From: an uncultured Candidatus Saccharibacteria bacterium
Lineage (GTDB): Bacteria > Patescibacteriota > Minisyncoccia > JAHISW01 > Tagabacteraceae
Length of the DNA: 60,362 nt
Direction: 5' to 3'
Assembly: GCA_964590835.1 (NCBI GenBank)
Contig: CAZPYD010000002.1
Coordinates: forward strand, 1-60,362
Positions within the stretch are counted from its first letter, which is position 1. Every line of letters starts with the position of its first letter. Of this stretch, positions 15,295 through 32,344 are shown one piece after another. Both the position numbers and the translations under genes were made by a program. A model generated the notes under the pieces. That model did no database searches. It was not told the DNA's origin and worked only from the letters and a program-made list of their open reading frames with translations.

Positions 15295-16128
15295 ATGGAA
15301 AATCAGTTTTTTTATAATAGCGGAATATTGTTTTTGACAAATAATTGTAATAATAATTGTTTAATATGCCAAGATAAATCACCTAATCTCAGTAAAAAAT
15401 TAGATATGGAATATAGTCAGGCCGTAAAGTTAATTGATATTTGGAAGAAAAATCAAAAAAAAGAAATTGAGATATATGGCGGAGAACCTCTTCTTTGTAA
15501 GGATTTCTGGAAGATATTAGACTATATGAAAGAATCCGGTATTTTCCCTAAAATAATGTCTAATGCAAGAGTTTTTTCAAATACTTCGATTGTAAGCAAA
15601 ATAAAGGTTTATAATCCCAAAATAATTACAAGTATTTTTAGTTTAGATCCTGATATTCATGATACGATAACAACTGTGCCAGGGAGTCTTGAGCAATCAA
15701 TTGCCGGAATTAATAATTTAATAAAAGAAGGACTGAGTGTTGTGGTGACAATTGTAATAACAAAATTAAACCAGAATACAATTTTATATATAGTTAATGG
15801 GTTGATTGAAATGGGCGTTGATACGATAAAAATATCAGGGTTAATCAGACAAGGGAGAATGTTTGAAGAAAAAAGATCTTTTTTGATTCCTGACTTTGAT
15901 AAAGTTAAAATAAGCATGGATCCTTTAGTGTCGGTTTTGGAAAAAAATAGAAAAAATAGCAACAATTTTTCTTATCAATTTGAAAAACTACCCTTATGTT
16001 TACATGATTCTTTGCGTTTGTCATTGCGGTGTGAAGATACGCATAAAGAGAAGTTATTAATTAAACCAAAGAACGAAGATTGTTGTAAAAGATGTAAGAA
16101 AAGAAAGTTTTGTTTAGCGGTTTTGTAG
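15295..16128 (+). CDS. radical SAM protein, paralog of the 43.9-49.5 kb array family
   Basis: CNNNCLIC (CX3CX2C), YGGEPLL, SL.DPDIHD.IT..PGS.EQ...GINNL, and a C-terminal LPLC...CKRCKKRKFC module. Confidence 0.85.
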   Translation: MENQFFYNSGILFLTNNCNNNCLICQDKSPNLSKKLDMEYSQAVKLIDIWKKNQKKEIEIYGGEPLLCKDFWKILDYMKESGIFPKIMSNARVFSNTSIVSKIKVYNPKIITSIFSLDPDIHDTITTVPGSLEQSIAGINNLIKEGLSVVVTIVITKLNQNTILYIVNGLIEMGVDTIKISGLIRQGRMFEEKRSFLIPDFDKVKISMDPLVSVLEKNRKNSNNFSYQFEKLPLCLHDSLRLSLRCEDTHKEKLLIKPKNEDCCKRCKKRKFCLAVL

Positions 16129-16344
16129 GCTTTAAATAATTTTATTTGCAAAACTCCTGTGAAGTAGGATTAATAGAGTTGACCGTTGCTTATTTTTACT
16201 TCTATCCACATTATCCACAATTTTGGTGGATTTTATTTTTAGAGTTAGTATAAAGAATAACAGTTTTAAATATTAGAATTTATAATTTAAATATGATTTC
16301 GAATTTCAGGTTTTGAGATTCGAAATTTTAATTTAAGAAATATT

Positions 16345-19086
16345 ATGGCAACAAGAAAAAAGATAGTAAAAAAAGAAAAAACACAAAAAGCCCGCCTTGC
16401 CTCGACAAAGGCGAGGCAGGTTAAAATGATTCAAAAAATCAAAAAGCGTGATGGTAGAGTTGTTGATTTTGATCCGAAAAGAATCGAAGAAGCTGTTTTT
16501 AAAGCATTTGAAGCAAGTGGTCAACCAGATAAAAAACTAGCTCAAGAAGTTGCCAAAACTGTTTTAAACAAATTAAATCAAAAATATAAAAAAAATATTT
16601 CTAAAGCCATTCCCACTGTTGAGGAGCTTCAAGATATTGTGGAAGAATCTCTTATTGAAGATGGGTCTGCAAAAGTTGCCAAATCATATATTCTTTATCG
16701 TCAAAAAAGAGCTGATTTAAGACGTGAAAAACAAGACATACTCGATAAGGGGGAGATAGATGAAGTAGACAAATATTTTGACCCAAACGCTCTCCGAGTT
16801 TTAAAGAGTCGTTATTTGAGAAAAGATGAGAATGGCAAGGTAATAGAATCTCCAAAAGAACTTTTTCAAAGAGTAGCTGTGCATACTGTTTTGCCGGATA
16901 TTGTTTATGACAAGAGAGTAACTTCAAAAAGGGTTGTTGGTAAAAAAGAAATACCTATGTGCCCACCCAGTGGGACAGATCAATTAGGTGTTTTGGGTGA
17001 GAAACGAGCCGTTGAGTTGGAAGGCAAAATGAGAATAGGGGATTATTACTTAAATCGTTTTCACGCCAAAGGGCTTTATCATTGTTTTGACAGATTCAAG
17101 AGAGAGGGAAAGGTAAAAATTAGTTGGGAGAAATTGGTGGAGATGTTAAAGAAGAATAAATTTGCCAAGCATCAAAAAAGAATTGATGAGTTTTATAAGT
17201 TAATGGTTTCTAGGGATTTTATGCCCAACACTCCTACTATTGCCAATTTTGGAAGTTTTTTGGGAATGGGTTCTGCTTGTTTTGCTTTGAATATTAAAGA
17301 TTCTATTAATTCCATAATGGAAACCCTTAAGAGGGCTGCTATAGTTTTCAAATCAGGCGGTGGTTTGGGTTATAATTTTTCAAAACTTAGGCCGGAGGGC
17401 GATTTCATAAAAACAACAGGAGGTGCTTCTTCCGGACCATTAAGTTTTATGCGTCTTTTTGACACAATGACAGAGGTGGTGAAGCAGGGTGGAATAAGAA
17501 GAGGGGCTAACATGGGAATAATGAATAGCAATCATCCTGATATAGAAAATTTTGTGATGGCCAAAGAGGGGAACAAGGCTTTGAATAACTTTAATATTTC
17601 CATTTTGGTAATGCCGGAATTTTGGGAATGCTACAAAAAGAACAAGCCGTATCCATTAGTTAACCCAAGAACTGGTGAGGTGCAGCGTTACATTTCTGCC
17701 AAGATTTTGTTCGACAGCATTGCTTATCAGGCATGGGAATCTGCTGAACCGGGATTGCTATTTTTCGATAAGATAAATGAACACAACCCGGTATTAAAAG
17801 AGATGGGACCGATTGTTACTACCAATCCTTGTGGCGAGCTTTTGCTTTATCCAAACGAGTCTTGCAACTTGGGCTCAATCAATCTTTGGAATTTTGTGAA
17901 AGAAAATGAAAAAGGCAAAAATGAAGTTGATTGGGAAAAACTGGAAAAGGCAGTAAGATTGGGTGTAAGATTTTTGGATAACATTATAGATGTAAACCAA
18001 CTCCCATTAAATGAAATAGAAGAGATGACCCTACAAACAAGAAAGATCGGCTTGGGTGTTATGGGGTTGGGTGATTTGCTTTTCGAGCTTGGAGTAACTT
18101 ACAACTCACCAAAAGGACGTGAACTAATGGAAAAAATTGCTGAATTTATAAATTATTATTCCAAAGAAGAATCGGTTAAAATGGCAAAAGAAAAAGGAGC
18201 CTTTCCTTTGTTCAAGAAGAGTTCTTTTGCAAAAGGAGAAATGCCTGTTTCCGGATTTTATGATAAAAAATCTTGGAATTTTGAATGGAAGAAGCTCGCA
18301 GCCAAAATTAAAAAATTCGGTATTAGAAATAGCTACACTACAGTGATTGCGCCTACCGGATCAATTTCCATGATTGCCGGTTGTTCTTCAGGGGTTGAGC
18401 CGGTTTATTCTTTGGTTTATCAAAAGAGTGTGGCTGTGGGTTCTTTTTATTATATTGATCCTGTTTTCGAGCACCACATGCTTCGCGAAGGTCTTTTTGA
18501 TGAGGATTTGATAACAGACGTGGTTAACTCAAAGGGGACTGTTCAGAATATAAACTACATACCGCCTAAATTTAAAAAAGTTTTTGTTACAAGTCATGAC
18601 ATTAAGCCGGAGGACCACATAAAGAGTTTAGCTGCTTTTCAGAAGTGGGTGGATTCTTCTATTTCAAAAACAATTAATTTTCCAAGAACAGCTTCTGTGG
18701 GTGATATCAAAAGAGCTTACCTTTTGGCTCATGAATTAGGATGCAAAGGGGTTACTGTTTATAGGGATACTTCTCTAAAGAAACAAGTTTTGTCGACAGA
18801 AGGGGCAGGCAAAAAAACAGATCCCTTCGTCAAAACTCAGGGCAAGAAAAAGAAGAGTGAAAAAGAAAGCGGTTTGCAAAGATTAAAAGATGAAAAGGCG
18901 GAGGGTATGGCTGTTTATCGAGATCCATCCGGTGTTTATATGAATGGTAATGGTGATAATGAGAATGGTTTTGTTGCAGATAAACCAACTGGAAAGATTA
19001 CAAAATGTCCAAGTTGTAAGATAGACCTTTCTTTTAAGGAAGGATGTATGTCTTGTCCTGTTTGTGGTTGGGGGTTGTGTGCGTAA
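16345..19086 (+). CDS. nrdJ: class II (adenosylcobalamin-dependent) ribonucleotide reductase with ATP-cone and C-terminal Cys4 ribbon
   Basis: An ATP-cone ([20 protein letters not shown]), TNPCGE...[10 protein letters not shown], and a C-terminal CPSC...CPVC. The start may instead be ATG 16426. Confidence 0.9.
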
Positions 19087-19136
19087 TTATTTTTTGATAT
19101 TTTAAGTATATAATTTAATAGAATTTACTAAAAAGA

Positions 19137-19553
19137 ATGGAAAAAGTAAAAATAAAAAATAATACTATAGAATTTGTTTTTAATTTACAGAATTATCCGA
19201 TGGAGGCACTTTATGGCACCGCTTATGTTTTTTTAGACAGAGCCTATTTGTTTTTGGATAACAAAACACCCGAGAAAATAAATATATTTTTAAAAGGCAA
19301 AAAAAAATTAACTAAAAAACAATTAGAGCAACTAAAAGATGATTTTCTAAATGAACTTTTGAATTATACGGTTAGAATAAAACTGACAAAAAATAATAAA
19401 AAAATAAGAGAGTTTGTTGTTGGGCAGGCTTTGTTTGCAGCTTTAAGTAATGGTGGTGAAGAAGACGAAGGTCTTAGTTATGATGATGATCCTCTTGGTA
19501 TCGCTGTTCCGTGGGAGGACAAATACGGTAAAGAAACAAAGAAGAAAAAATAA
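19137..19553 (+). CDS. HxsD-like small protein
   Basis: FLNELLNYTVRIKL resembles the LLNDYxLRE motif that names the HxsD family. It is positioned upstream of an HxsB-like rSAM gene. Confidence 0.45.
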   Translation: MEKVKIKNNTIEFVFNLQNYPMEALYGTAYVFLDRAYLFLDNKTPEKINIFLKGKKKLTKKQLEQLKDDFLNELLNYTVRIKLTKNNKKIREFVVGQALFAALSNGGEEDEGLSYDDDPLGIAVPWEDKYGKETKKKK

Positions 19554-19569
19554 ATAATCAACAAGGATA

Positions 19570-19770
19570 ATGGTTATAAAATTTAGTAAAAAAATATATA
19601 AATTAAACGCGATAAAATCAGCCATAAAACAATACCAGGAATTGGCTGATTTTAGTTTTGAGAAAAAAGATGATTATATTTTTGTGAAATTGAAAAAAAT
19701 TGATAAGGATATTGAGAAAATAATTAAAGATGAATTTTGTAATTATGTTCTTGGCTTAATGAAAACATAA
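19570..19770 (+). CDS. second short HxsD-like protein
   Basis: AAGGA RBS; DEFCNYVLGL aligns with the same motif region. 66 aa. Confidence 0.4.
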   Translation: MVIKFSKKIYKLNAIKSAIKQYQELADFSFEKKDDYIFVKLKKIDKDIEKIIKDEFCNYVLGLMKT

Positions 19771-19777
19771 AATATCG

Positions 19778-21205
19778 ATGTTAAAGAAAAATAATAATTT
19801 GGGTTATTTTCGTTTTAAAAAAACAGGAAATGAGTATCTTTTAACAAACGATGCAGGTGATTTTTTGTTTTTGAAAGAAAAAGATTTTAACAGTTTTTTA
19901 GACGATAATTTAGATAAAGATAAAGAACCTTATTTATCTTTGAAAGAAAAAAATTTTGTAAAAGATGAGATGGATCTTGCTAGTTGTATAGACAAATATC
20001 GCTCTAAAAATAAATTTTTATTTGGTGGACCTAGTTTGCATATTATAGTAGTAACTCAAAGGTGTAACCACTGTTGTGTTTATTGTCATGCCAGCGCTCA
20101 GTCTATGGATAAAGAAGGTCTTGATATGGACAAAGAAACGGCTAAACAGGTAGTTGATAAAATCTTTCAAACCACAAGTCACTTTGTGGCAATTGAGTTT
20201 CAGGGTGGGGAGCCTTTGGTAAATTGGGATATTATAAAATTTATTATTGAATATGCCAAGAAAAAAAACAAACAAGCAAAAAAAGATTTGCAACTTAGAT
20301 TGGTTTCCAATTTTTCCTTAATGACCGAAGAAAAGTTTCAGTATTTGATTAAAAATAAAGTAAGTTTTTGTATTTCAATAGATGGACCGGAAAAAGTTCA
20401 TAATAAAAATCGTCCTATGGTTGGAGGTAACAGCTATAAACATGCAATAAAGTGGGCTAAGAAGTTTAATGATCTATACCCTAAGTTAAAAAAGAAAAAG
20501 TATATTTTTAAAATGGGATTGGCTGTTACCACAAGTCGTTTTTCTTTGCCTTACTATAAAGAAATAATAGATAAATATATCAAGTTAGGATTTACTGGTG
20601 TTTATTTGAGGCCCTTAAATCCTTTTGGCTTTACGAAAAAACATTTTAAACAAATTGGTTATACTGTTGACGAATATATGGAATTTTATAAAAATGCCCT
20701 TTCTTATATAATCCAGTTGAATTTAAAAGGGAAGGAGGTGACAGAAAAAATGGCGGTTACATTTTTAACAAAGATTTTAACTGATGGTGACCCCAATCAT
20801 TTAGATTTTAGGTCTCCTTGTGGTGCCGGTATTGGTCAGTTAGCTTATAATTACAATGGTAATGTTTACACTTGTGATGAGGGTAGAATGATGAGCATGA
20901 TGGGGGATGAGAGTTTTTGTTTGGGTAATGTTACAGAGAACAGTTATCAAGAAATAGTTGGTAGTCCTGTTACAAGGACAATGTGTACCGCATCGTGTTT
21001 AGATGGTTTGGCAGGTTGTAGTGACTGTGTTTATAAGCCATATTGTGGAGTTTGCCCTATATATAATTATTCTGAACAGGGAAATATTTTTGGACAAATG
21101 CCTGATAATGAGCGCTGTAAAATAAATAAGGCTACTTTGGATTTCTTGTTTGAAAAATTAAAAGACGAAAAAACAAGGCTTATTTTTGAGAAGTGGGTGA
21201 AATAA
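19778..21205 (+). CDS. hxsB: radical SAM/SPASM maturase, HxsB-like
   Basis: CNHCCVYC provides a CX3CX2C, followed by EFQGGEPL. It has a full SPASM end (CGAG...YTCDEG...CSDCVYKPYCGVCP) and an N-terminal extension of about 85 aa. It is adjacent to the His-Xaa-Ser repeat gene. Confidence 0.7.
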   Translation: MLKKNNNLGYFRFKKTGNEYLLTNDAGDFLFLKEKDFNSFLDDNLDKDKEPYLSLKEKNFVKDEMDLASCIDKYRSKNKFLFGGPSLHIIVVTQRCNHCCVYCHASAQSMDKEGLDMDKETAKQVVDKIFQTTSHFVAIEFQGGEPLVNWDIIKFIIEYAKKKNKQAKKDLQLRLVSNFSLMTEEKFQYLIKNKVSFCISIDGPEKVHNKNRPMVGGNSYKHAIKWAKKFNDLYPKLKKKKYIFKMGLAVTTSRFSLPYYKEIIDKYIKLGFTGVYLRPLNPFGFTKKHFKQIGYTVDEYMEFYKNALSYIIQLNLKGKEVTEKMAVTFLTKILTDGDPNHLDFRSPCGAGIGQLAYNYNGNVYTCDEGRMMSMMGDESFCLGNVTENSYQEIVGSPVTRTMCTASCLDGLAGCSDCVYKPYCGVCPIYNYSEQGNIFGQMPDNERCKINKATLDFLFEKLKDEKTRLIFEKWVK

Positions 21206-21268
21206 TTTTGTAAATTAAATAAGAAATGTAAGTTATACACAATTTTCGGTTTTTATTTCATGACTTTT

Positions 21269-21277
21269 TGTTATAAT
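21269..21277 (+). promoter_or_regulatory. extended -10 promoter element (TGtTATAAT) for the repeat-protein gene
   Basis: TGTTATAAT ends 11 nt before ATG 21289, implying a very short leader. Confidence 0.35.
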
Positions 21278-21288
21278 TAAAGAAAACA

Positions 21289-21654
21289 ATGGCTAAAAAG
21301 AAAAAACTTAAACTACCTCAAATTAAAAAAGACATAAAAGCTTTTTTGACTAGTGAGGAAGGCAAGATAAACAAAAAAGATGCAGCTAAAATTGCTTTGG
21401 GTGTATTGTCCCTAGGTATTGTTTTAGCTGGGGCAATGAAGGCAGATCCAACTTCTGCTGCTTGTTCACATGCTTCACATGGTTCACATGGCTCACATGG
21501 TAGTCATGGTTCACACGGTAGTCATGGTTCTCATGGTTCACACGGTAGTCATGGTTCTCATGGTTCACACGGTAGTCATGGTAGTCATGGTTCTCACGGC
21601 TCTCATGGTTCTCATGGAAGTCACGGTTCTCATAGTTCGCATAGCGCTTATTAA
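21289..21654 (+). CDS. hxsA: His-Xaa-Ser repeat protein (HxsA-like): Lys-rich N-terminus, one TM/signal helix, 20 Ser-His-Xaa triplets
   Basis: The sequence runs AAKIALGVLSLGIVLAGAM-KADPTSAAC, then 1 SHA, 17 SHG and 2 SHS triplets, then AY. Confidence 0.8.
   Translation: MAKKKKLKLPQIKKDIKAFLTSEEGKINKKDAAKIALGVLSLGIVLAGAMKADPTSAACSHASHGSHGSHGSHGSHGSHGSHGSHGSHGSHGSHGSHGSHGSHGSHGSHGSHGSHSSHSAY
21466..21645 (+). repeat. 9-bp coding tandem repeat (20 units) with a 27-bp higher-order unit
   Basis: Units are (tca|agt|tct|tcg)(cat|cac)(ggt|ggc|gga|gct|agt|agc). The 27-mer agtcatggttctcatggttcacacggt occurs twice in perfect tandem. Confidence 0.95.
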
Positions 21655-21662
21655 AATATTAA

Positions 21663-22598
21663 ATGAAATCCTTAAATTTAAATAAATTTTTAATAACCAT
21701 ATTAGTGCTTATTGTTATTGTTTTAGGTGTTACTTTTTGGTTTAAGGTTTATCCTCCAATAGCTGATATTTCTCCGGAAGCGGTTGAAAAAAAATGCACA
21801 GAAGAAACAATCCAAATGACAGATGATGAGTTAATTGGACAAATTGATAATTTAAAATATCCAGAAAAAATTACAGGTGTTATTAGTAGCAGAACAGGAT
21901 TGGAGCATGATAGAAAATCATTGACACAAAATTTAATGGTAGAGTATTTGATTTGTAAAGCAAAAACAAACCCCGAAGATAAGAGTTTTTATGATAGAGC
22001 TCAAGAATATATTTCAGAGAAAATGATTTTAGGGGACAAGGGTGAGCAGGCAAAACAAGAAATATTAGATTCATTGAATAGTGCCGTAGAACAGCCTTTT
22101 GTCAATTTTTTAAACATGGTGGAATTAGAAATGATTTTAGAAGATAGAGAGAGGCAGGCAAAACAAGAGGTTTCTGATTCGTTGGATGGTGTCGCTGGAC
22201 AACCTTTTGTTAATTTTTTAAATATAGTGGCATTGGGAAACTTAGAAAAACTTTGTCCAGGCGAATTACCTAAGATATGTCGAAAAAGCTTAGAGGATCT
22301 TGGTGAAAAGAACCAAGCCTTATTTTCTAGTTGTGATTCTTTGTGTAATTATAAAAATTGGACCCCAGACCTTAAGTTAGAGATAGAGGATCCTATTGAG
22401 TTTCAAAGTAGATATCAAACAGAAGTAGCTTTTGCTTATAGATTTGGAGGTAGTGAATTAGCTTTACTTTTTTGTGATGATATTAAAGAAGAAAGTAGAA
22501 AAAAGGATTGCTTAAATCTTATTAAAAGATTTAATTATTTACAAAACTGTGATCTTCATAAAGAGAAGTTGGCTGATTTGATTTGTGTTGTTGATTAG
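21663..22598 (+). CDS. membrane-anchored Cys-containing hypothetical protein with internal 36-aa duplication
   Basis: N-terminal TM helix (FLITILVLIVIVLGVTFWF). Residues 121-153 and 157-189 are repeats (MILGDKGEQAKQE..QPFVNFLNMV / MILEDRERQAKQE..QPFVNFLNIV). Confidence 0.7.
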   Translation: MKSLNLNKFLITILVLIVIVLGVTFWFKVYPPIADISPEAVEKKCTEETIQMTDDELIGQIDNLKYPEKITGVISSRTGLEHDRKSLTQNLMVEYLICKAKTNPEDKSFYDRAQEYISEKMILGDKGEQAKQEILDSLNSAVEQPFVNFLNMVELEMILEDRERQAKQEVSDSLDGVAGQPFVNFLNIVALGNLEKLCPGELPKICRKSLEDLGEKNQALFSSCDSLCNYKNWTPDLKLEIEDPIEFQSRYQTEVAFAYRFGGSELALLFCDDIKEESRKKDCLNLIKRFNYLQNCDLHKEKLADLICVVD

Positions 22599-22631
22599 TT
22601 TGTTTTGTAAAAATTAAAATTTTCTAATTAT

Positions 22632-22658
22632 TACTACATTGAAGTAGTATTTTTTTTG
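22632..22658 (+). terminator. weak terminator-like hairpin plus T8
   Basis: tactac-attgaa-gtagta followed by tttttttt. Confidence 0.35.
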
Positions 22659-22718
22659 GTTTAATATTTAAATATATTGGTATTGGTTAAAAATAAAGAT
22701 AAACATTAAATATAAACC

Positions 22719-23636
22719 ATGTCTTATAGATTTGTTTTTTATGAAAATAAACATAAAGATAAATTAAACAAATATTTAAAAAAAATAGAACCAAGTTTTA
22801 AATATATACCTTTTTTATTTTCTTTAGATAGCTTGCTTGTATTGTCACAATATAAAAAGGTTTTTTTGATTTTAAAAAACAACAAAGTTGTCAATGTGGG
22901 TTATTTAAATATTTGTAAAAATCATGCCAGGTTTTTGTTTGAATTACCAAAAATTGATTATGATTTTTTAAAAAATGTACACAGTATTGCTGTATCATTT
23001 TTAAAAATTAATTTTAATTATAATGATTATGTTTTTTTAAATGAGAATATAATTGATATTAAAAAACTTTTAAAATTAGAAGAAAATAGTTTTAGAAATA
23101 TAAGGAAAAAGATAAAACAATTTAAAAAACTTTATCCTAAAATAGAGATTACAGCTTTTGATTGTAGGAAACATTTAGAGAATGATTTTTTTATTTTTTT
23201 TAATCGGTGGGTGCAAAATTATATAAAAAAAGGAAAAACTCCTTGTTTATTTTTAGACAAAGAATATTTAAAGCATATTTACGGTAATGGTATGAAAACT
23301 AATTGTTTTAGAGGTCTAATTGCAAAAGAAGAAAACAAGATAGTGGGTTTTATTTTTTATATAATTTCTCCTGGCCACAACCAAGCAATAAATCTTGCTC
23401 AAAAAACTTTTTATAAATATAAAGGATTAAATGAATTTTTGCTTTATGAAGCAAGTAGAATTTTGTGGGAAGAGGATGATATTAGATACATTAACATTGG
23501 TCCTTCCAGAGATGAGGGTGTATTAAATTTTAAAAGGAAATTTAATACAGAAATAATTCCTTCGTTTACGATAGTACTTAAGGGTTTTGGAAAAGAAGAT
23601 AAATCTTTTTGGTATGCAGATCATTTTAATAAGTAG
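22719..23636 (+). CDS. GNAT-fold acyl/aminoacyl-transferase-like protein (DUF2156 / FemAB-like)
   Basis: Its C-terminal half (GLIAKEENKIVGFIFY...YKGLNEFLLYEA...INIGPSRDEGVLNFKRKFN) resembles the MprF C-terminal/DUF2156 pattern. Confidence 0.35.
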   Translation: MSYRFVFYENKHKDKLNKYLKKIEPSFKYIPFLFSLDSLLVLSQYKKVFLILKNNKVVNVGYLNICKNHARFLFELPKIDYDFLKNVHSIAVSFLKINFNYNDYVFLNENIIDIKKLLKLEENSFRNIRKKIKQFKKLYPKIEITAFDCRKHLENDFFIFFNRWVQNYIKKGKTPCLFLDKEYLKHIYGNGMKTNCFRGLIAKEENKIVGFIFYIISPGHNQAINLAQKTFYKYKGLNEFLLYEASRILWEEDDIRYINIGPSRDEGVLNFKRKFNTEIIPSFTIVLKGFGKEDKSFWYADHFNK

Positions 23637-23744
23637 TTTTTAGTAATGATCACTGTTGCTTTATTTGTTGGTGTTGCTGTGGTTGTTGTTGAGTTTAAGT
23701 GATATTATTATAATATTTATAATTGGAGTTTAATTAGTGTTGTT

Positions 23745-24710
23745 ATGAGAAAAATATTCTTATTGTATAAGATGACATACAGGTGTAATGATTCTTGTCC
23801 TTTTTGTTTAGATTATGAACAAATCCAAAAAAACACAGGGAATCTTTCTTTAGTTGATTTTAAAAAAAATTTAGATTTTTTTTTAAAAAAAGCAGAAATT
23901 AAAAAGGTAATTCTTACCGGAGGAGAACCCACATTGCATCCGAATTTTTTTGAGATTTTATCATATATTAAAGCTCAAAACATACCTTTTTCTATTATCA
24001 CTAATGCAATAAAATTTACAGACAAAGGTTTTTTAAAAAGAACTAAGAGTTATTTTCCAAATATTTCTTGTGGTGATGTTAATACTATATATTTTTCACT
24101 GAATGATGTTTCAAATAAAACTGATAATACAAAAAAGGGGGAAATTTTAAAAAAAAGAATAGAAGGAATAAAAAATTTGGCAAAATCTGATTTTCCTTTA
24201 TCGGCTATTGTAACCATAAACCAAGAAAATAAGAATAATTTAGGGGAGTTAATGAAATTTTTAATTAACCTAAAATCAGAATTTGATTTTAATTTTAGGT
24301 TAGTAGAGTTTAGAATTCTTTATTCTTTATTAACGCCAATAAAAATATTTAAAAATAATTTTATTGATTCGATCGATGACATCAGGGAATCTTTAGAGAA
24401 AAACCTAACACATCTAAGGCGAAGCAATATTAATTATGTTTTATGGAACTTTCCTTTTTGTTATTTTAAAGACCCGCAAAGTCATGCTGATATTTTATTA
24501 AAAGATAGGCTTGAGGCGAAAATTGTTAAAATTGATTATTCTCATCAATGTAGCCACGCAGACTCTCTTGGGTGGAAAAAACATCTAAAAGATAATTTAT
24601 TTTGCGGGAATTGTGATTTAAATGATTATTGTAGTGGAATTGAGAGAGATTATATTGATTTATATGGATATCCTAGTTTAAAAACTATTAAATACAATAA
24701 TAAACAATAA
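23745..24710 (+). CDS. radical SAM protein with C-terminal Cys module
   Basis: CNDSCPFC, LTGGEPTL, FPFC...CGNCDLNDYCSG. Confidence 0.85.
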   Translation: MRKIFLLYKMTYRCNDSCPFCLDYEQIQKNTGNLSLVDFKKNLDFFLKKAEIKKVILTGGEPTLHPNFFEILSYIKAQNIPFSIITNAIKFTDKGFLKRTKSYFPNISCGDVNTIYFSLNDVSNKTDNTKKGEILKKRIEGIKNLAKSDFPLSAIVTINQENKNNLGELMKFLINLKSEFDFNFRLVEFRILYSLLTPIKIFKNNFIDSIDDIRESLEKNLTHLRRSNINYVLWNFPFCYFKDPQSHADILLKDRLEAKIVKIDYSHQCSHADSLGWKKHLKDNLFCGNCDLNDYCSGIERDYIDLYGYPSLKTIKYNNKQ

Positions 24711-24712
24711 AA

Positions 24713-25909
24713 ATGTTTAGTTCATTCATTAAAGGACAAAAATTATATATAAATGATAGGCATGAAGAAAAGGACACAGAAAATGAAGATAGAGAAAAAT
24801 TATATGATAAAAAAATCTTATCTTTGCTGGAAAGGGGAGATGTAGCAATATTTGGTGCTAAAATAAATCAATTTTTGTGGGATTATTATCGAAAGCTAGG
24901 TCTGGCCAAGATTAAAAAAGACGACATTTTTTTTGTTAGTGACTTTTTGGGTTACAAGTCATTAACGAAAGCCTTACTTGAAGACAAGATTTTATTAGAA
25001 GAATTCAAAAAAAGAAAATTTGATTTTATTTCGCCATATATAGAAAGTGAATCGACTCGAAAGTTGGCAGAAAAAATAAACTCCAGGTTATATAGGGATT
25101 CAGAAATAACAAGTTGGTTTAATAATAAAATAAAATATCGAAAGTTATTAGAAGATTGCGGCTTGCCAGCTATTTCTGGATATAAAGTAGAAAATAAAAA
25201 AGAGATCAGAAAAGCTTATGATAAATTGAAAAAACAAGGTTTTGAAAAAGTTGTTTTAAAAAAAGGTAGATCGGTAGCAGGGTTTGGTATTTGGAAAGTA
25301 GAAAATATTGATAAGTTAGATTTGAATAAAAATGAAGAATATTTATTGGAGGGTTTTGTTGAAAAAATATTTCTTTCTCCAAATGTTCAGTATTTTATTG
25401 GGCGAGATGATATAAAATTTCTTACGGCGACAGATCAGATTTTTGGTGAAAGCGGTTTTGATCATAAGGGGAATATTTTTCCGTCCAGGTTAGAAAAATT
25501 ACCGGAATTAAAACAAAAAATACTTAATTATTCTCAAAAAGTTTGTGATTATTTGCAAAACAAGAAGTGTTTTGGTTTTGTTGGTATAGATTTTATTATT
25601 ACACAAAATCAGGATGTTTATTCTTGTGAATGTAATGTAAGATTAAACTCAAGCACCTTTCCTTTTTTTATAGTATCTAAGTTGTTTCCAGAACAGAATG
25701 TGAGCTGGCATAGCTTTACTTTAAAAACACAACCTATTGAGTTTGAGGATTTTTACAGAAAAAACAAAAAGTTATTTATCAATAGAATTGGTGATTATGG
25801 GATATTTCCTGTTGACATTGATTTGTTGAATAGTTATGGAGAAGGGCAGTTTTTTGCTGTTCACAAAACTAATAAAAAAGTAAAAGAATTAATAAATAAA
25901 ATAAATTAA
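24713..25909 (+). CDS. ATP-grasp family ligase
   Basis: VVLKKGRSVAGFGIWKV and GFVGIDFIIT....VYSCECNVRLN (an E-x-N Mg/ATP motif). Confidence 0.7.
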   Translation: MFSSFIKGQKLYINDRHEEKDTENEDREKLYDKKILSLLERGDVAIFGAKINQFLWDYYRKLGLAKIKKDDIFFVSDFLGYKSLTKALLEDKILLEEFKKRKFDFISPYIESESTRKLAEKINSRLYRDSEITSWFNNKIKYRKLLEDCGLPAISGYKVENKKEIRKAYDKLKKQGFEKVVLKKGRSVAGFGIWKVENIDKLDLNKNEEYLLEGFVEKIFLSPNVQYFIGRDDIKFLTATDQIFGESGFDHKGNIFPSRLEKLPELKQKILNYSQKVCDYLQNKKCFGFVGIDFIITQNQDVYSCECNVRLNSSTFPFFIVSKLFPEQNVSWHSFTLKTQPIEFEDFYRKNKKLFINRIGDYGIFPVDIDLLNSYGEGQFFAVHKTNKKVKELINKIN

Positions 25910-25911
25910 AT

Positions 25912-27036
25912 ATGTATGTTTTGGGGATAGATACAATTTTACATGATTTTTGTGTGGCTGTTACCAAAGATAATAAGGTTTTGAGCAGTATAGTGGTACA
26001 TAGAAGAATGAGTGATTTTAGAGGGGAGTTGTTAAGATTACCTCTTTTAAATATTCAAGATGTGGGAAAAATAATAAATCTAGCAATTAAAAAAGCTAAA
26101 ATTAATTTAACAGATATTTCTTTAATATCTGTTAACAATAAAGGGAGTTTATTTTCTAATATTATTATCGGGATAACATCTGGAAATTTACTTAGTGAAA
26201 TATATGGGATACCGATTGTTGAAGTAGAACATCAAGCAGCTCATATTTTTTCAAATTGGATAAACAAAAAGGAAAAAGATAAAATTTCCTTTCCTGTTAT
26301 AGTTTTTAGCGCATCAGGAGGGCATACATCAATAAATCTTATTAAGAAAAATAACTTTAAATATCAAGTTTTATACGATAACAGTGGGATAGAAAATAAA
26401 AAAGGGGAAAAGCCAAATTTTTTAGGTGTTGGGACGTTGTTTAGCGATATGGCTATTATTTTAGGTTTTGAAAAATCCAAAAAGAGAAATAGGGGGGATG
26501 GTAATTTGATTTCTGGTTTGGCTAAAAGAGGTAGGGAAAATAAGTATGATTTTTTTGGGAATTATAAAAAAGAAAATAATGTTTATGATTTTAATTTTTT
26601 AAATATAAGAAAGTATATTTTATCTAAAATTAAAAAAAAGTTGAAAGCTAATAAAACTGTTTCTTTGCAAAAAAAGGCAGATATTGCTTTGGGGTTTGAG
26701 AACTTTATATCTGATATTATTATAGAAAACGTCCTTTTTTGGGTTAAAAAGCATAAAGCTAAGGAGGTTCATTTTGTTGGGGGAGTGTCTGCAAACTCAA
26801 CACTTCGGAAAAAAGTTAAAAAAATTTTTAAAAAAAGAGAGGTAGTGCTTAGAATAGCTGATAAGAAATATTGTACAGATAATGGGGGTATGATATCAGT
26901 TTTAGGATTTTACAAATATATAAATAACAAAAATAAATATAAAAAACAAAGAAAAGTAAAATTAGAATCAGATTTTAAACTAGAAAAAATTGCAATTGAT
27001 CAATTTTTTAATAAACCAAAAAGAAAAAATATTTAG
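25912..27036 (+). CDS. Kae1/TsaD (ASKHA) family protein, copy 1
   Basis: VLGIDT, HQAAH (HxxxH metal motif), GGVSANSTLRKK, CTDNGGMI. Confidence 0.7.
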   Translation: MYVLGIDTILHDFCVAVTKDNKVLSSIVVHRRMSDFRGELLRLPLLNIQDVGKIINLAIKKAKINLTDISLISVNNKGSLFSNIIIGITSGNLLSEIYGIPIVEVEHQAAHIFSNWINKKEKDKISFPVIVFSASGGHTSINLIKKNNFKYQVLYDNSGIENKKGEKPNFLGVGTLFSDMAIILGFEKSKKRNRGDGNLISGLAKRGRENKYDFFGNYKKENNVYDFNFLNIRKYILSKIKKKLKANKTVSLQKKADIALGFENFISDIIIENVLFWVKKHKAKEVHFVGGVSANSTLRKKVKKIFKKREVVLRIADKKYCTDNGGMISVLGFYKYINNKNKYKKQRKVKLESDFKLEKIAIDQFFNKPKRKNI

Positions 27037-27039
27037 TTT

Positions 27040-28764
27040 ATGAATTGTATAAAATTGAGTAAATTAAGCAATAATTCTCTTAAAAAAGATCTTTCTACCT
27101 CAGAGAGATTAAATATTCTTGTTGATTCTAATGATTATAAAAAACTATACAAGTTGGTTGATTTTGTTAAAAATGATTATAAGGTAATTCAACTGGAGGG
27201 AAAGAGTGGTTTTTTTAGCAATGAGCTTTTAGATTTTATTTCTGAAAGAAAAATATTTTGTAAGATTAATATAGATACTAATTTTACAGAGAAGAAAAAT
27301 TCTTTTAATCTTTTTTCGTCGATAAGTAAAAAAAATATCATGAAATTAGTTGTTAATATTTTGATATACCCAGATAAAAAATTAAGTGATTTAAAAAAAA
27401 TAGATAAAACAATAAGTTGGTTGTCAAAAAATAATATCAATAAAATACAATTTACTTTGTGTGATAGAAAAAGACCAGGGGAGCGGGCTTCTTTTGAGCA
27501 GTTGATCAATGTTTTATCATCAGCAAGATATGTTAGTTTTTCAAAAGTAATAAAAAAAGTTAATGGAATTCCGTATTGTATATTTTCAGATCCGGAGGAG
27601 TTGGTAATACGTGATTTAAGCCACCACAAAGAGAGATATTTTAAATTGGATAAGTGTAAAAAATGTTCATTAAAAAATAATTGTTCTGGAATTCCTAGAA
27701 TATATAAAAATGAGAAGATTGATAAGTTTATTAAGCCAGAAAAGAAACTTAAGGAAGTAACGATAGAATTAACAAGTAAATGTAATTTTGGTTGTAAGTT
27801 TTGTTTTAATAAAGCCAGTTTTGCGAAAGATGGGCGTGGTGGTGACGAAATGGGAACGGAGAAGATAAAAAAGATAATTGATCAAATAAAAAAGAGTGGT
27901 GTTTCTGTTGTTAGGTTCACAGGGGGGGAGCCCTTGTTGAGAAGTGATTTAATGGAGTTGTTGTTGTATACTAGAAACAAAGGGCTTAAAGTGAGGTTGA
28001 ATACTAATGGGTATTTAATTAGAGATTATGAGCATGCAAAAAAGTTGGCCAAGTACTTAGATTATGTTTTATTCTCTTTTCACGCTTATGATTTTAAAAA
28101 GGAAGAAAAAATTACTGGGGTTAAAAATTCATTTCAAAAGAAGATTCAAGCAATAAAATGGCTTAGAAAAGCAGGTGTTAATACCATAAGAATAAACACA
28201 GTTGCTTCGGTTGATAATATAAAAAATTTGGAAAAATTCTATAATTTATTTAAGGAGTTAAAAATAGATAGTTGGGCGACAAACAGATTAATTCCAGTTT
28301 TTGATGACAAGTGTATTTGGGGGAAGAAAGAGTTAGGGTTGTTGGTTAAAAAATTAGTGAAAATTAAAGAAGATATTAATAAAAATAACATTCCTTTACG
28401 GTTGCATATTGTTAATGCTGTTCCACTTTGTGCAATGAATCCGATAACAATGAACAGGGTTTGTATTGGAGGGAGGAGTGTTGATGGTCATGAACGTTTT
28501 GTGATAGATCCTCGAGGTTTTGCTAAGCCCATATATTATATTGATAAAAATATTGGAGATGCTTGTGATATTAAGGGTAGTTGGGAAAATAATTTTATGA
28601 AAAGTTTGAGGAGCTACGTTAATCTTCCGGCAGAATGTAAAAAATGTTCTTTGCTTGAAAAATGTAAGGGAGGTAATAGGTACTGTGCTTTTGTTGCAAC
28701 AGGTAATTTTTTTGGTAAAGATCCGTTAATGAATTACAATAATATAAATGATTTTGTTTGGTGA
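27040..28764 (+). CDS. radical SAM/SPASM-like protein with ~230-aa N-terminal extension carrying an extra Cys module, copy 1
   Basis: The N-terminus has IPYC...CKKCSLKNNCSG. The core has CNFGCKFCFNKASFAKDGRG and FTGGEPLL. The C-terminus has DGHERFVIDPRGFAKP...CKKCSLLEKCKGGNRYC. Confidence 0.85.
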   Translation: MNCIKLSKLSNNSLKKDLSTSERLNILVDSNDYKKLYKLVDFVKNDYKVIQLEGKSGFFSNELLDFISERKIFCKINIDTNFTEKKNSFNLFSSISKKNIMKLVVNILIYPDKKLSDLKKIDKTISWLSKNNINKIQFTLCDRKRPGERASFEQLINVLSSARYVSFSKVIKKVNGIPYCIFSDPEELVIRDLSHHKERYFKLDKCKKCSLKNNCSGIPRIYKNEKIDKFIKPEKKLKEVTIELTSKCNFGCKFCFNKASFAKDGRGGDEMGTEKIKKIIDQIKKSGVSVVRFTGGEPLLRSDLMELLLYTRNKGLKVRLNTNGYLIRDYEHAKKLAKYLDYVLFSFHAYDFKKEEKITGVKNSFQKKIQAIKWLRKAGVNTIRINTVASVDNIKNLEKFYNLFKELKIDSWATNRLIPVFDDKCIWGKKELGLLVKKLVKIKEDINKNNIPLRLHIVNAVPLCAMNPITMNRVCIGGRSVDGHERFVIDPRGFAKPIYYIDKNIGDACDIKGSWENNFMKSLRSYVNLPAECKKCSLLEKCKGGNRYCAFVATGNFFGKDPLMNYNNINDFVW

Positions 28765-28770
28765 TAAAAT

Positions 28771-30719: not shown

Positions 30720-30730
30720 AATACAATACT

Positions 30731-32321: not shown

Positions 32322-32344
32322 AGAAAAGTAGGAGTAAAAAAGAC

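What the first reader, a model, noticed from the sequence alone, without database searches (positions are those of the whole stretch)
21289..21654. HxsA-like protein: membrane anchor followed by 20 uninterrupted Ser-His-Xaa triplets encoded with mixed Ser codon families
Seen directly:
- After a Lys-rich N-terminus and one hydrophobic helix, the protein ends in C-(SHA)(SHG)x17(SHS)x2-AY.
- Ser is encoded by both TCN and AGY codons, His by both CAT and CAC. The repeat is therefore maintained at the protein level, not just by DNA slippage.
- A perfect tandem 27-bp higher-order unit also shows recent expansion.

Established knowledge: His-Xaa-Ser repeat proteins (HxsA) are paired with radical SAM maturases HxsB/HxsC and with HxsD in a bioinformatically defined system of unknown function. 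Related SPASM enzymes acting on repeated aromatic-X-X motifs (XyeB, GrrM, FxsB-type three-residue cyclophane-forming enzymes) make C-C crosslinks between residue 1 and residue 3.

Inference: up to about 19 consecutive His-Gly-Ser units could each be crosslinked. That would give a rigid, metal-binding, membrane-tethered polymer.
Basis: partly seen in the sequence, partly recalled or inferred. Interest (0 to 1): 0.8.

Follow-up and report, generated by a model that had tools for sequence, protein, structure and literature searches.

The report
HxsA4 His-Xaa-Ser repeat precursor gene
This is a real gene for an already catalogued class of His-Xaa-Ser repeat protein (HxsA4), sitting beside its radical-SAM enzyme in a candidate-phyla-radiation bacterium. 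It is an untested cousin of a system shown in 2026 to block phage DNA entry in E. coli.

Summary
ORF 21289..21654 encodes 121 aa: a Lys-rich N-terminus, one hydrophobic helix, Cys59, 20 uninterrupted S-H-x triplets and a C-terminal AY. Ser and His codons are mixed, and a 79-nt tract is perfectly periodic at 27 bp.

It scores above NCBI's curated cut-off for HxsA4. It lies in the cassette HxsD, HxsD_rel, HxsB, HxsA4 and a Cys-rich exported partner. That cassette is conserved in 11 of 12 related Patescibacteria loci, and the enzyme triad recurs in loci of other lineages.

Repeat number varies widely: 14, 17 and 20 triplets among near-identical strains (steps of exactly 27 bp) and 5 to 42 among relatives. 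The tract is always in frame and almost always ends in an aromatic residue. It is therefore selected protein, not junk.

Li et al. 2026 showed that the canonical HxsDBCA system is an anti-phage system. They reported +8 Da on one repeat, not -2 Da per repeat.

This variant differs from that system:
- It has no peptidoglycan-binding domain.
- Its core carries no charged residues.
- It has no adjacent HxsC. HxsC-like genes and an A24-type leader peptidase lie 22-29 kb away.

The leader is shared with precursors that have other cores. The chemistry and the function here remain untested.

Verdict: new member of a known kind, moderate interest.

The parts
19137..19553 (+). hxsD (138 aa), small accessory protein. 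It has a C-terminal DDPLGIAxPWExK tail that canonical HxsD lacks.
   Evidence: TIGR03976 55.9 bits, cut-off 50. Alignment with relatives and with Aeromonas HxsD. Conserved at this position in 11 of 12 Patescibacteria loci and in L014 and L016.
19570..19770 (+). hxsD_rel (66 aa), a short HxsD-like protein that aligns to the N-terminal two-thirds of HxsD (motif EFxNYxL).
   Evidence: NF038315 79.7 bits, cut-off 41. Orthologues in L014, L016 and L022 are also above cut-off. Alignment.
19778..21205 (+). hxsB (475 aa), radical SAM/SPASM peptide maturase.
   Evidence: TIGR03978 546 bits, cut-off 370. Pfam Radical_SAM, Fer4_12 and SPASM. 37.7% identical over its full length to annotated Aeromonas HxsB. 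Invariant Cys 96/100/103 (CX3CX2C) and 348/414/417/423/447 (SPASM). Nearest solved structure is CteB, 5wgg.
21289..21654 (+). hxsA4, the precursor/effector gene (121 aa). This is the finding.
   Evidence: NF038313 96.6 bits, cut-off 55. 571 relatives at E<=1e-3. Same position in 11 of 12 related loci.
21289..21384 (+). Leader, aa 1-32: a Lys-rich cytoplasmic segment with the family motif LPQIKKDIKAFLTSEEGKINKK. It is the presumed docking site for HxsB/HxsD.
   Evidence: F19, L20, E23, E24 and G25 are invariant. K13, K14, I27 and K34 are at least 90% conserved. AF2 predicts a helix at 12-21. A leader-only search finds 93 cluster representatives. The docking role is inferred.
21385..21441 (+). 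Single hydrophobic helix (aa 33-51). It is either a membrane anchor or the h-region of an N-terminally extended signal peptide.
   Evidence: Mean Kyte-Doolittle value 1.98 over 19 aa. AF2 predicts a helix at 29-49. Topology (N-terminus inside) is inferred from the positive-inside rule.
21442..21465 (+). Linker KADPTSAAC (aa 52-59) with conserved A57-x-C59. It is a candidate signal-peptidase-I type site.
   Evidence: A57 and C59 are at least 90% conserved in alignment A1. Cys lies within 4 residues before the first repeat in 36 of 45 members. Cys-less relatives have AxA-type sites there. Cleavage itself is not tested.
21466..21645 (+). Core: 20 S-H-x triplets (SHA, 17 SHG, 2 SHS). It contains a 27-bp variable-number tandem repeat at 21504..21582.
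   Evidence: Strain alleles of 17 and 14 triplets differ by exactly 27 and 54 bp. Predicted without secondary structure.
21663..22598 (+). Partner protein (311 aa): an N-terminal transmembrane helix plus a Cys-rich, predicted all-helical outer domain. It is fast evolving and matches no known family.
   Evidence: Positional homologues follow hxsA4 in L001, L003, L004, L009, L011 and L013. Five Cys are invariant. It is 37.5% identical to the L001 orthologue, against 82% for HxsB. No Pfam, NCBIfam or PADLOC match. The AF2 model is poor, pLDDT 52.5.
47590..48516 (+). HxsC4-like small rSAM (308 aa). A candidate remote accessory gene of the system.
   Evidence: Top NCBIfam hit is NF038332 HxsC4 at 156.8 bits, below the cut-off of 500. 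56% identical to the gene directly after hxsA4 in Omnitrophota locus L014.
48520..49455 (+). HxsC-like small rSAM (311 aa). The best HxsC candidate in the window.
   Evidence: TIGR03977 180.7 bits, below the cut-off of 267.9. 63% identical to L007 243..1181, 53% to L002 10727..11677 and 39% to L014 7422..8288, all of which lie next to Hxs cassettes or hxsA4.
49445..50670 (+). A24-type (type IV leader peptidase family) polytopic membrane protein, motif WAAGDAKLF. It is split here by a frameshift near 50101-50116. A candidate leader peptidase.
   Evidence: Pfam Peptidase_A24 27.4 bits, cut-off 26.5. tblastn shows the L007 402-aa orthologue matching frame 1 and then frame 3. Intact homologues lie beside the cassette or precursor in L007, L014, L016 and L022.

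Best explanation
ORF 21289..21654 is a functional gene for an HxsA4-class His-Xaa-Ser repeat protein of a Patescibacteria (CPR) bacterium. It is the substrate and end product of a compact Hxs cassette: hxsD, hxsD_rel, hxsB, hxsA4 and a Cys-rich membrane partner.

Proposed mechanism:
1. The conserved Lys-rich leader (aa 8-31, IKKDIKAFLTSEEGKI) stays in the cytoplasm. It recruits the SPASM radical-SAM enzyme HxsB together with the two HxsD-type proteins. This step is inferred.
2. HxsB modifies His/Ser units of the disordered, uncharged (SHG)n core before export. That a modification happens is inferred from the canonical system. Its chemistry is unknown.
3. The single hydrophobic helix carries the core across the cytoplasmic membrane. 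Topology is inferred from the charge distribution.
4. The leader is then removed, either at the conserved A-x-C site outside the membrane or by the A24-type peptidase that recurs in related loci. This step is inferred.
5. A His-rich modified peptide is left on or just outside the membrane, next to the fast-evolving Cys-rich partner.

By analogy with the E. coli HXS system, the most likely role is an envelope-level barrier against incoming phage DNA. The effector principle must differ in detail, because this core has no basic residues and no peptidoglycan-binding domain.

Repeat number changes by slippage or recombination of a 27-bp unit, which always keeps the reading frame.
For: Identity:
- All four family models score above their curated cut-offs.
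- HxsB is full length, with every rSAM and SPASM cysteine conserved.

Conserved cassette:
- The same gene order occurs in 11 of 12 Patescibacteria loci.
- HxsD, HxsD_rel and HxsB recur with HxsA4 in an Omnitrophota MAG (L014) and in an unclassified metagenome contig (L016).

Protein-level selection:
- S and H are near-invariant. The x position is G, S or A in 89% of cases.
- An aromatic residue lies within the last three residues in 40 of 45 members.
- Repeats number 5-42 in relatives and are never out of frame.
- Strain alleles of 20, 17 and 14 triplets differ by exactly 27 or 54 bp within contigs at least 99.5% identical.

Leader as recognition module:
- The leader is the most conserved part of the protein.
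- It is also found on precursors with unrelated cores.
- One such precursor sits beside a bona fide HxsB (495 bits) and HxsD_rel.

Export:
- There are 11 K/R before the helix and no charged residues after it.
- AF2 predicts a leader helix at 12-21, a hydrophobic helix at 29-49 and an unstructured core.

Function by analogy: in the canonical system HxsB, HxsC and HxsD are all needed for HxsA processing, for a +8 Da modification in an HxS repeat and for blocking phage DNA entry (PMC13128918).

Surface-conflict signature: the partner is 37.5% identical between genomes whose HxsB is 82% identical.
Against: - No experiment exists for any HxsA4-type system.
- The canonical effector depends on a peptidoglycan-binding domain and on Arg-rich repeats. 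Both are absent here: the core has 0 K/R/D/E.
- All four canonical genes are essential. No HxsC above cut-off is present here. The HxsC-like genes are 22-28 kb away, and the associated A24-like gene is frameshifted in this window.
- Flanking genes of 13 related loci show no consistent defence-island content.
- In two genomes the cassette lies next to a housekeeping ribonucleotide reductase.
- The copy-number alleles could be assembly collapses of a perfect repeat.
Confidence: 0.6

Rival explanations
1. HxsB acts like a triceptide (three-residue cyclophane) synthase. It crosslinks the His imidazole to Ser C-beta in each of about 19 H-G-S units (-2 Da each). The result is a rigid, metal-binding polymer held on the membrane by the N-terminal helix.
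For: - H-x-S fits the aromatic-X-X motif formally.
- His-based triceptides are real: HaaB on HAA, YhhB on HNR, HtkB on HTK, each His C2 to X3 C-beta (PMC11499958).
- HxsB has a complete SPASM domain.
- The x position is restricted to small residues and the Ser position is 87% Ser. That fits a per-unit enzymatic requirement.
Against: - HxsB scores only 59 bits on the YhhB model (cut-off 445) and 66 on WgkB. It scores 113-138 bits on PapB, nif11, QhpD and SCIFF maturases.
- The only mass spectrometry on an Hxs substrate reports +8.0 Da at a single SHRSS motif.
- A conserved A-x-C or AxA site after the helix, and the recurrent A24-type peptidase, argue against a simple permanent anchor.
Confidence: 0.15
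2. A metal-handling peptide. The exported (SHG)n tract, with 20 His and no other ionisable side chains, buffers or scavenges Ni, Zn or Cu at the cell surface of a metabolically reduced episymbiont. The rSAM modification serves mainly to stabilise it or tune its affinity.
For: - The core has His at every third residue and no competing charges.
- It is predicted to be flexible and unstructured.
- Its location is extracytoplasmic by charge topology.
- Copy number varies freely, as expected for a capacity-type function.
Against: - No metal transporter, metallochaperone or metalloregulator was seen among the neighbours in the window or the related loci.
- The same leader and enzyme set serves cores that are not His-rich.
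- The experimentally studied relative acts in phage defence.
Confidence: 0.12
3. Pilin-like processing. The Lys-rich leader plus hydrophobic helix is a class-III-like signal. It is cut on the cytoplasmic face by the dedicated A24-family peptidase. The helix is kept, and the mature protein stays membrane-anchored or is assembled into a surface fibre that carries the (SHG)n tail.
For: - A24-type peptidase homologues (WAAGDAKLF) lie beside the cassette or precursor in L007, L014, L016 and L022. The window has an orthologue at 49445..50670.
- The precursor layout (basic leader, then one hydrophobic helix) is the layout of A24 substrates.
- In E. coli, HxsA N-terminal cleavage is reported as non-canonical.
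Against: - The prepilin cleavage signature is absent: no Gly at -1 directly before the helix and no Glu at +5. The invariant G25 is followed by polar KINKKD.
- The leader is 32 aa, long for a class III signal.
- The window's A24-like gene is frameshifted and 28 kb away.
- No pilus assembly ATPase or platform gene was seen next to the cassettes.
Confidence: 0.15
4. The tract is not a functional feature. It is a slippage-prone low-complexity or collagen-like (Gly-X-Y) tail without specific function.
For: - Pfam Collagen matches at 37.9 bits, cut-off 27.2.
- Copy number is hypervariable.
Against: - Gly is replaceable by Ala or Ser in relatives (for example SHASHASHA in L002), while S and H are fixed. 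The periodic element is therefore not Gly.
- The tract is in frame in 15 related loci and 3 strain alleles.
- SHG has 8 synonymous spellings.
- The gene is always found with a dedicated rSAM cassette.
Confidence: 0.02

Closest known systems
NCBIfam NF038313 'His-Xaa-Ser repeat protein HxsA4', with NF038315 HxsD_rel, TIGR03978 HxsB and TIGR03976 HxsD
   Same: All four models are matched above their curated cut-offs. The layout is the same: leader, helix, S-H-x repeats. Relatives are already named HxsA4 in NCBI annotations of Omnitrophota and Actinobacteria MAGs.
   Different: Nothing essential. This copy is at the long end of the range (20 repeats; the median of a family sample is 9) and shows strain-level 27-bp copy-number variation. 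The family is defined by bioinformatics only.
Canonical HXS anti-phage system HxsD-HxsB-HxsC-HxsA of E. coli, Klebsiella and Aeromonas (Li et al., Nat Commun 2026, PMC13128918)
   Same: HxsB is orthologous (37.7% identity over its full length). An HxsD is present. The substrate has tandem H-x-S units followed by an aromatic residue and is destined for the extracytoplasmic side.
   Different: - Canonical HxsA has a 22-aa signal peptide, only 5-7 Arg-rich repeats and a C-terminal peptidoglycan-binding domain.
- HxsA4 has a 32-aa conserved leader, 20 uncharged repeats and no further domain.
- The canonical operon has an adjacent 404-aa HxsC. Here there is none above cut-off, and a second HxsD-like gene is present instead.
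- The host here is probably a monoderm CPR bacterium without a periplasm.
- The authors' census places 99.7% of systems in Pseudomonadota.
Triceptide (three-residue cyclophane) pathways acting on His-X-X motifs: HaaB, YhhB, HtkB
   Same: A radical-SAM/SPASM enzyme is paired with a precursor carrying aromatic-X-X motifs. Histidine is a proven ring donor.
   Different: HxsB is not a member of those enzyme families (YhhB model 59 bits against a cut-off of 445). The reported Hxs mass shift is +8 Da, not -2 Da. Triceptide precursors have no transmembrane helix.
Thioether-forming SPASM maturases (PapB, SCIFF/CteB, QhpD)
   Same: Together with the nif11-peptide maturase family (138 bits), these are the best non-Hxs sequence relatives of HxsB (113-132 bits). 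CteB is the nearest solved structure. A Cys directly precedes the core in most Patescibacteria members.
   Different: All are far below their cut-offs. Canonical Aeromonas HxsA has no Cys at all, so thioether formation cannot be the general Hxs reaction.
Class III (type IV prepilin) signal peptides cut by A24 aspartic peptidases
   Same: The precursor has a basic N-terminal leader followed by one hydrophobic helix. An A24-family gene recurs beside the cassettes.
   Different: There is no G(-1)/E(+5) signature. The leader is longer. The peptidase has a large extra C-terminal region. No pilus assembly genes are seen.

Membership tests
HxsA4 (NCBIfam NF038313) | Whole-protein score at or above the curated cut-off (55 bits) | tested here: met
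   96.6 bits, E 1.2e-27, profile positions 1-89 of 93.
HxsA4 (NCBIfam NF038313) | Tandem His-Xaa-Ser repeats after a conserved leader and a hydrophobic segment | tested here: met
   20 S-H-x triplets. Leader residues F19, L20, E23, E24 and G25 are invariant in the family alignment.
HxsA4 (NCBIfam NF038313) | Genomic pairing with HxsB and HxsD-type proteins | tested here: met
   HxsD, HxsD_rel and HxsB lie immediately upstream, all above cut-off. The same order occurs in 11 of 12 related loci.
Canonical HxsA (TIGR03979) | Score at or above the cut-off (121.65 bits) | tested here: not met
   TIGR03979 is not among the hits at E<=0.01 for this protein. A relative in L016 reaches only 20 bits.
Canonical HxsA (TIGR03979) | Short N-terminal signal peptide and C-terminal peptidoglycan-binding domain | tested here: not met
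   A 32-aa leader precedes the helix. The protein ends two residues after the repeats. Pfam finds only a compositional Collagen match. Compare Aeromonas HxsA.
Canonical four-gene HXS system (HxsD-B-C-A) | HxsB radical SAM/SPASM enzyme | tested here: met
   TIGR03978 546 bits against 370. All cluster cysteines are conserved.
Canonical four-gene HXS system (HxsD-B-C-A) | HxsC radical SAM enzyme adjacent to HxsB | tested here: not met
   No gene reaches the TIGR03977 cut-off of 267.9. The best are 48520..49455 (180.7 bits, 27 kb away) and 15295..16128 (89 bits, absent from the syntenic relative L001).
Canonical four-gene HXS system (HxsD-B-C-A) | HxsD small protein | tested here: met
   TIGR03976 55.9 bits against 50, plus a second, shorter HxsD_rel.
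Canonical four-gene HXS system (HxsD-B-C-A) | Confers resistance to phage by blocking DNA entry; +8 Da modification and HxsBCD-dependent N-terminal cleavage of HxsA | not testable with these tools
   Known only for the E. coli system. Context analysis gives no defence-island signal.
Triceptide / 3-residue cyclophane pathways | Maturase belongs to a cyclophane-synthase family | tested here: not met
   YhhB model 59.2 bits (cut-off 445) and WgkB 66.4 (cut-off 650). Higher scores go to nif11-peptide (138 bits) and thioether-forming (113-132 bits) families.
Triceptide / 3-residue cyclophane pathways | Aromatic-X-X motif carrying an aromatic-to-C-beta crosslink (-2 Da) | not testable with these tools
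   The H-G-S motif is formally compatible. The crosslink needs MS or NMR. The published Hxs shift is +8 Da.
Collagen-like triple-helix repeat (PF01391) | Gly strictly at every third position as the conserved element | tested here: not met
   The Pfam score passes (37.9 against 27.2). In relatives, however, the Gly position is S or A in 42% of units, while S and H are fixed.
Bacterial lipoprotein (signal peptidase II substrate) | Lipobox directly after an uncharged h-region, with Cys within about 35 residues of the N-terminus | tested here: not met
   Read directly from the sequence. K51 and D53 lie within the six residues before T-S-A-A-C59, and the Cys is at position 59. The rule is applied from memory of PROSITE PS51257.
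Type IV prepilin-like (class III signal) substrates | Gly at -1 immediately before the hydrophobic helix and Glu at +5 | tested here: not met
   The helix is preceded by D-A-A-K34. The invariant G25 is followed by polar KINKKD.

The most novel reading that the evidence does not exclude
HxsA4-type cassettes may be more than a diminished copy of the proteobacterial defence operon. They could be a separate pathway of CPR and Omnitrophota bacteria, working as follows:
- A shared leader (FLxSEEG) plus a transmembrane helix delivers many different cores to HxsB, HxsD and HxsD_rel. The cores include (SHx)n, short Cys...Tyr/Trp peptides and long Cys/Asp/Tyr-rich domains.
- The precursor then passes to a dedicated A24-type intramembrane leader peptidase.
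- The result would be a new class of exported, rSAM-modified surface peptides processed like pilins.
- In the (SHG)n members every repeat would be modified.
Probability: 0.2. Interest if true: 0.7.

Novelty: new member of a known kind. Interest (0 to 1): 0.42.

Why it matters
The chemistry performed by HxsB and HxsC is still unsolved. The 2026 study could not reconstitute it, partly because E. coli HxsA is insoluble on its own and is modified at only one site.

An HxsA4 cassette may be a much simpler test bed for finding out what HxsB does to a His-Xaa-Ser unit. It has one SPASM enzyme, two small helper proteins and a substrate made of 14-20 near-identical, uncharged units.

It also raises a biological question. 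Does an HXS-type envelope barrier against phage DNA exist in the tiny, probably periplasm-free CPR bacteria? Or is the same enzyme set used there for another surface function?

Three things seen here give concrete handles for experiments:
- the leader shared by unrelated cores,
- the fast-evolving Cys-rich partner,
- the recurrent A24-type peptidase.

Tried and rejected
- **Collagen-like reading.** The Pfam hit passes its cut-off. I rejected it because Gly is not the conserved position in relatives.
- **Lipoprotein reading of C59.** Rejected: charged residues lie in the would-be h/c-region and the Cys is at position 59.
- **Fold of the 311-aa partner.** A word-indexed search found only the protein itself. 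A profile search found 3 more. The AF2 model from 4 sequences had pLDDT 52.5 and was all-helical, so I did not fold-search it.
- **Homology between the partner and the Cys-rich exported proteins beside hxsA4 in other phyla.** hhalign probability is below 1%. The resemblance is positional only.
- **HxsD against solved structures.** No match.
- **PADLOC on the cassette proteins.** Only generic rSAM-to-viperin cross-hits.
- **PADLOC on 127 flanking genes of 13 loci.** No consistent defence content.
- **Sigma-70 promoter and terminator scan.** Counts equal the shuffle expectation in this AT-rich DNA, so it is uninformative.
- **Locus search with the 20-sequence leader alignment.** An 8-sequence subset worked.
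- **rSAM 15295..16128 as the missing HxsC.** The score is weak (89 bits) and the gene is absent from the syntenic close relative L001. It is unlikely to be a core component.
- **rSAM 27040..28764 as an HxsC analogue.** Homologues recur near cassettes in L004, L009 and L011, but its best family matches are AhbD/NirJ-like. Left open.
- **tRNA and Rfam scans.** Only two tRNAs, far from the locus.
Full report
**Observation.** The ORF at 21289..21654 (+) exists exactly as described.
- It encodes 121 residues: a Lys-rich N-terminus (11 K/R in the first 32 residues), one hydrophobic stretch (AAKIALGVLSLGIVLAGAM, mean Kyte-Doolittle value 1.98), the linker KADPTSAAC, 20 uninterrupted S-H-x triplets (1 SHA, 17 SHG, 2 SHS) and a final AY.
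- Ser uses TCA, TCT, TCG, AGT and AGC. His uses CAT and CAC.
- The 17 SHG units are spelled in 8 different ways. None of 20,000 random-mutation simulations preserved the protein repeat this well.
- That test overstates significance, because units were copied in blocks. The 27-bp higher-order unit already contains three different Ser codons.
- The sequence is identical to itself at lag 27 over 79 nt, 21504..21582. TRF reports period 27 with 5.5 copies.

**What it is.** The protein scores 96.6 bits on NCBIfam NF038313, 'His-Xaa-Ser repeat protein HxsA4' (cut-off 55).
- The three genes upstream are HxsD (TIGR03976, 55.9 against 50), HxsD_rel (NF038315, 79.7 against 41) and HxsB (TIGR03978, 546 against 370).
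- The canonical HxsA model TIGR03979 is not matched.
- HxsB is complete. The CX3CX2C motif (C96, C100, C103) and five SPASM cysteines are invariant from this window to Aeromonas. It is 37.7% identical over its full length to an annotated plasmid HxsB. Its nearest solved relative is the SCIFF maturase CteB.
- Related loci come from Patescibacteria MAGs (Falkowbacteria, 'Patescibacteria group', Saccharibacteria-labelled assemblies). With 31% G+C, the window is most likely from a CPR bacterium.

**Conservation.** A search of 5.8 billion proteins gave 571 relatives.
- They share the motif [LF]PxIKKDIKxFLxSEEGKIxKK, a hydrophobic helix, a short linker, S-H-[GAS] repeats and an aromatic C-terminus (SSY, GQW, GSW, GGWC).
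- In a strict subset of 45, the x position is G 47%, S 24%, A 18%. The Ser position is Ser in 87%. An aromatic residue lies in the last three positions in 40 of 45. Charged residues make up 1.3% of the cores.
- In 12 genome loci found through the leader, 11 have the order HxsD, HxsD_rel, HxsB, HxsA4. Repeats number 5 to 42 and are always in frame. Two Falkowbacteria loci carry two tandem hxsA4 genes.
- The closest relative (L001, about 79% nucleotide identity, syntenic from a U32 peptidase through the ribonucleotide reductase to the cassette) has only about 6 units.
- Three contigs whose HxsB is identical to the window's are at least 99.5% identical in nucleotide sequence. They carry hxsA4 alleles of 17, 17 and 14 triplets. 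The only indel is exactly 27 or 54 bp inside the perfect tract.
- This is what a 27-bp variable-number tandem repeat looks like. The caveat is that short-read assemblers can collapse such a repeat.

**What is known.** Li et al. (Nat Commun 2026, PMC13128918) report the following for the E. coli hxsD-B-C-A operon:
- It protects against 110 of 113 coliphages by blocking DNA entry.
- All four genes are required.
- HxsA is exported, is cleaved at its N-terminus in a way that needs HxsB, HxsC and HxsD, and carries a +8.0 Da change localised to the SHRSS motif of its last repeat.
- HxsC binds HxsD, and periplasmic HxsA binds DNA.
- The chemistry was not reconstituted.
- Their census puts 99.7% of systems in Pseudomonadota, so HxsA4-type cassettes were outside their view.
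- No paper in the library mentions HxsA4.

**How this variant differs.**
- Canonical HxsA (Aeromonas example) has a short signal peptide, the Arg-rich tract GHRSHRSHSSHRSHSSHRSHYSGY and a peptidoglycan-binding domain.
- HxsA4 has a 32-residue conserved leader, an entirely uncharged core with 20 His, and nothing after the repeats. Any electrostatic DNA binding would depend on His protonation.
- There is no HxsC beside HxsB.
- The small rSAM at 15295..16128 has HxsC as its top hit, but at 89 bits against 268, and it is missing from syntenic L001.

**A dispersed accessory block.** The window carries a row of six HxsC/HxsC4-like rSAM domains at 43952..49455. HxsC or HxsC4 is the best family for each, and all are below cut-off.
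- Two of them are orthologous to genes that directly flank Hxs cassettes elsewhere. 47590..48516 is 56% identical to the gene after hxsA4 in Omnitrophota locus L014. 48520..49455 is 63% identical to a gene in L007 and 53% to one in L002.
- The next gene, 49445..50670, belongs to the A24 type IV leader peptidase family (Pfam 27.4 against 26.5, motif WAAGDAKLF). In this window it is split by a frameshift.
- Intact homologues lie beside the cassette or the precursor in L007, L014, L016 and L022.
- This is guilt by association in four loci that are only distantly related to one another. It is not proof, but it suggests the full system includes HxsC-like rSAMs and a dedicated leader peptidase. Here those genes are separated from the core cassette by a roughly 28-kb region of lower G+C (27-30% against 32-37%).

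**The leader is modular.** I searched residues 1-60 alone against 1.84 billion cluster representatives. This found 93 families.
- Fewer than half of the new ones have H-x-S runs.
- The others join the same leader and helix to short Cys...Tyr/Trp cores, to long Cys/Asp/Tyr-rich cores, or to 500-residue proteins.
- Curated models see only a sub-threshold HxsA3 leader match in them.
- One such precursor (L022) lies behind HxsD, HxsD_rel (69.7 bits) and a bona fide HxsB (495 bits), and is followed by the A24-like gene.
- The enzyme triad therefore seems matched to the leader rather than to the repeat. This is the behaviour of a leader in ribosomally made, post-translationally modified peptides (RiPPs).

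**Mechanism, with what is shown and what is inferred.**
- Shown: gene identities, conserved order, intact catalytic motifs, protein-level conservation of S and H, length variation in 27-bp steps, and the charge asymmetry around a single helix.
- AF2 with 47 sequences predicts a short leader helix (12-21), the hydrophobic helix (29-49) and no structure in the repeats, at low confidence.
- Inferred: the leader docks to HxsB/HxsD in the cytoplasm. HxsB modifies H-x-S units before export. The helix takes the core outside. The leader is then removed.
- Two cleavage options remain. The conserved A57-x-C59 (AxA in Cys-less relatives) looks like a signal-peptidase-I site and would release the core. 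The A24-type enzyme would cut on the cytoplasmic side and leave the helix as an anchor.
- I favour an envelope-level role related to phage defence, by analogy and because the adjacent partner evolves fast (37.5% identity where HxsB keeps 82%). I hold this only moderately. The peptidoglycan-binding domain and the basic residues are missing, and 127 flanking genes in 13 loci give no consistent defence-island signal.

His-based three-residue cyclophanes are real (HaaB, YhhB, HtkB), so the idea is legitimate. However, HxsB scores 59-66 bits on cyclophane-synthase models against 113-138 bits on nif11-peptide and thioether-forming maturases. The only mass spectrometry on an Hxs substrate is +8 Da at one site. 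Thioether chemistry cannot be general either, because canonical HxsA has no cysteine. The reaction is simply unknown.

**Verdict.** This is a genuine and well-observed feature that belongs to an already curated family. Its experimentally characterised cousin was published in 2026. It is a new member of a known kind. Its value is as a simpler substrate for solving Hxs chemistry, and as a pointer to a broader leader-defined precursor family in CPR and Omnitrophota bacteria.

Noticed in passing
window 15295..49455: Very high density of radical-SAM genes: about 14 rSAM domains in 34 kb. They start at 15295, 19778, 23745, 27040, 32912, 34848, 40974, 42530, 43952, 44850 (two domains), 46720, 47590 and 48520. 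Nearly all are on the + strand.
   Followed up: partly
window 44850..46745: A 631-aa protein made of two complete small rSAM domains. The N-terminal half matches HxsC best (175 bits) and the C-terminal half matches HxsC4 best (227 bits). It looks like a fusion of the two neighbouring gene types.
   Followed up: no
window 49445..50670: The A24-type leader peptidase homologue is split into two ORFs by a frame change near 50101-50116. Orthologues in L007, L014, L016 and L022 are intact (320-402 aa). This could be a pseudogene, a sequencing error or recoding.
   Followed up: partly
window 22719..40000: A co-directional cluster follows the cassette. It holds a FemAB/LPG_synthase_C-like protein, an ATP-grasp, two TsaD/Kae1-like plus Sua5/YrdC pairs (25912+28771 and 36904+37953, resembling split TobZ/HypF-type carbamoyltransferases), a PLP decarboxylase, an SDR, GT1 and GT28 glycosyltransferases and a U32 peptidase. 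It may make a surface glycan or a modified nucleoside.
   Followed up: no
window 21001..51000: G+C is 27-30% here against 32-37% on both sides. The region between the Hxs cassette and the HxsC-like/A24 block may be a variable insert. The syntenic relative L001 has different genes after the partner protein.
   Followed up: no
window 21663..22598: The partner protein contains an internal duplication of about 40 aa (EQAKQEILDSLNSAVEQPFVNFLNMV / RQAKQEVSDSLDGVAGQPFVNFLNIV). The 271-aa L001 orthologue lacks it. Five cysteines are invariant across seven homologues.
   Followed up: partly
window 27040..28764; L004 9363..10931, L009 7125..8966, L011 14055..15614: A 574-aa rSAM with a roughly 230-aa N-terminal extension of unknown type has close homologues (537-618 bits) 1-6 kb downstream of the Hxs cassette in three other Patescibacteria loci.
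   Followed up: no
window 21269..21277: An extended -10-like element, TGTTATAAT, lies 11 nt before the hxsA4 start codon. The same nonamer precedes hxsA4 in L001. If used, the mRNA would be almost leaderless. Pattern matches are common in this AT-rich DNA.
   Followed up: no
proteins P0133-P0210; locus L022: The HxsA4 leader and helix are attached to unrelated cores in many metagenomic proteins. Examples are short C...Y/W peptides such as CATGTYSSTY and CWDLPGGGHNRGGWC, long CPTDY-rich domains, and two proteins of about 500 aa. None is covered by a curated family above cut-off.
   Followed up: partly
window 21289..21654: The exact 121-aa product is not in the 15-billion-protein collection. HxsB, HxsD and the reductase from the same 60,362-bp contig are. 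The 112-aa and 103-aa alleles were called on other contigs.
   Followed up: no
L008 7599..8231 and L010 7611..8240: Falkowbacteria loci carry two tandem hxsA4 genes, one long (about 20 repeats) and one short (5-6 repeats). L016 also has two. L002 and L015 have an hxsA4 with no HxsB within the fetched flank.
   Followed up: no
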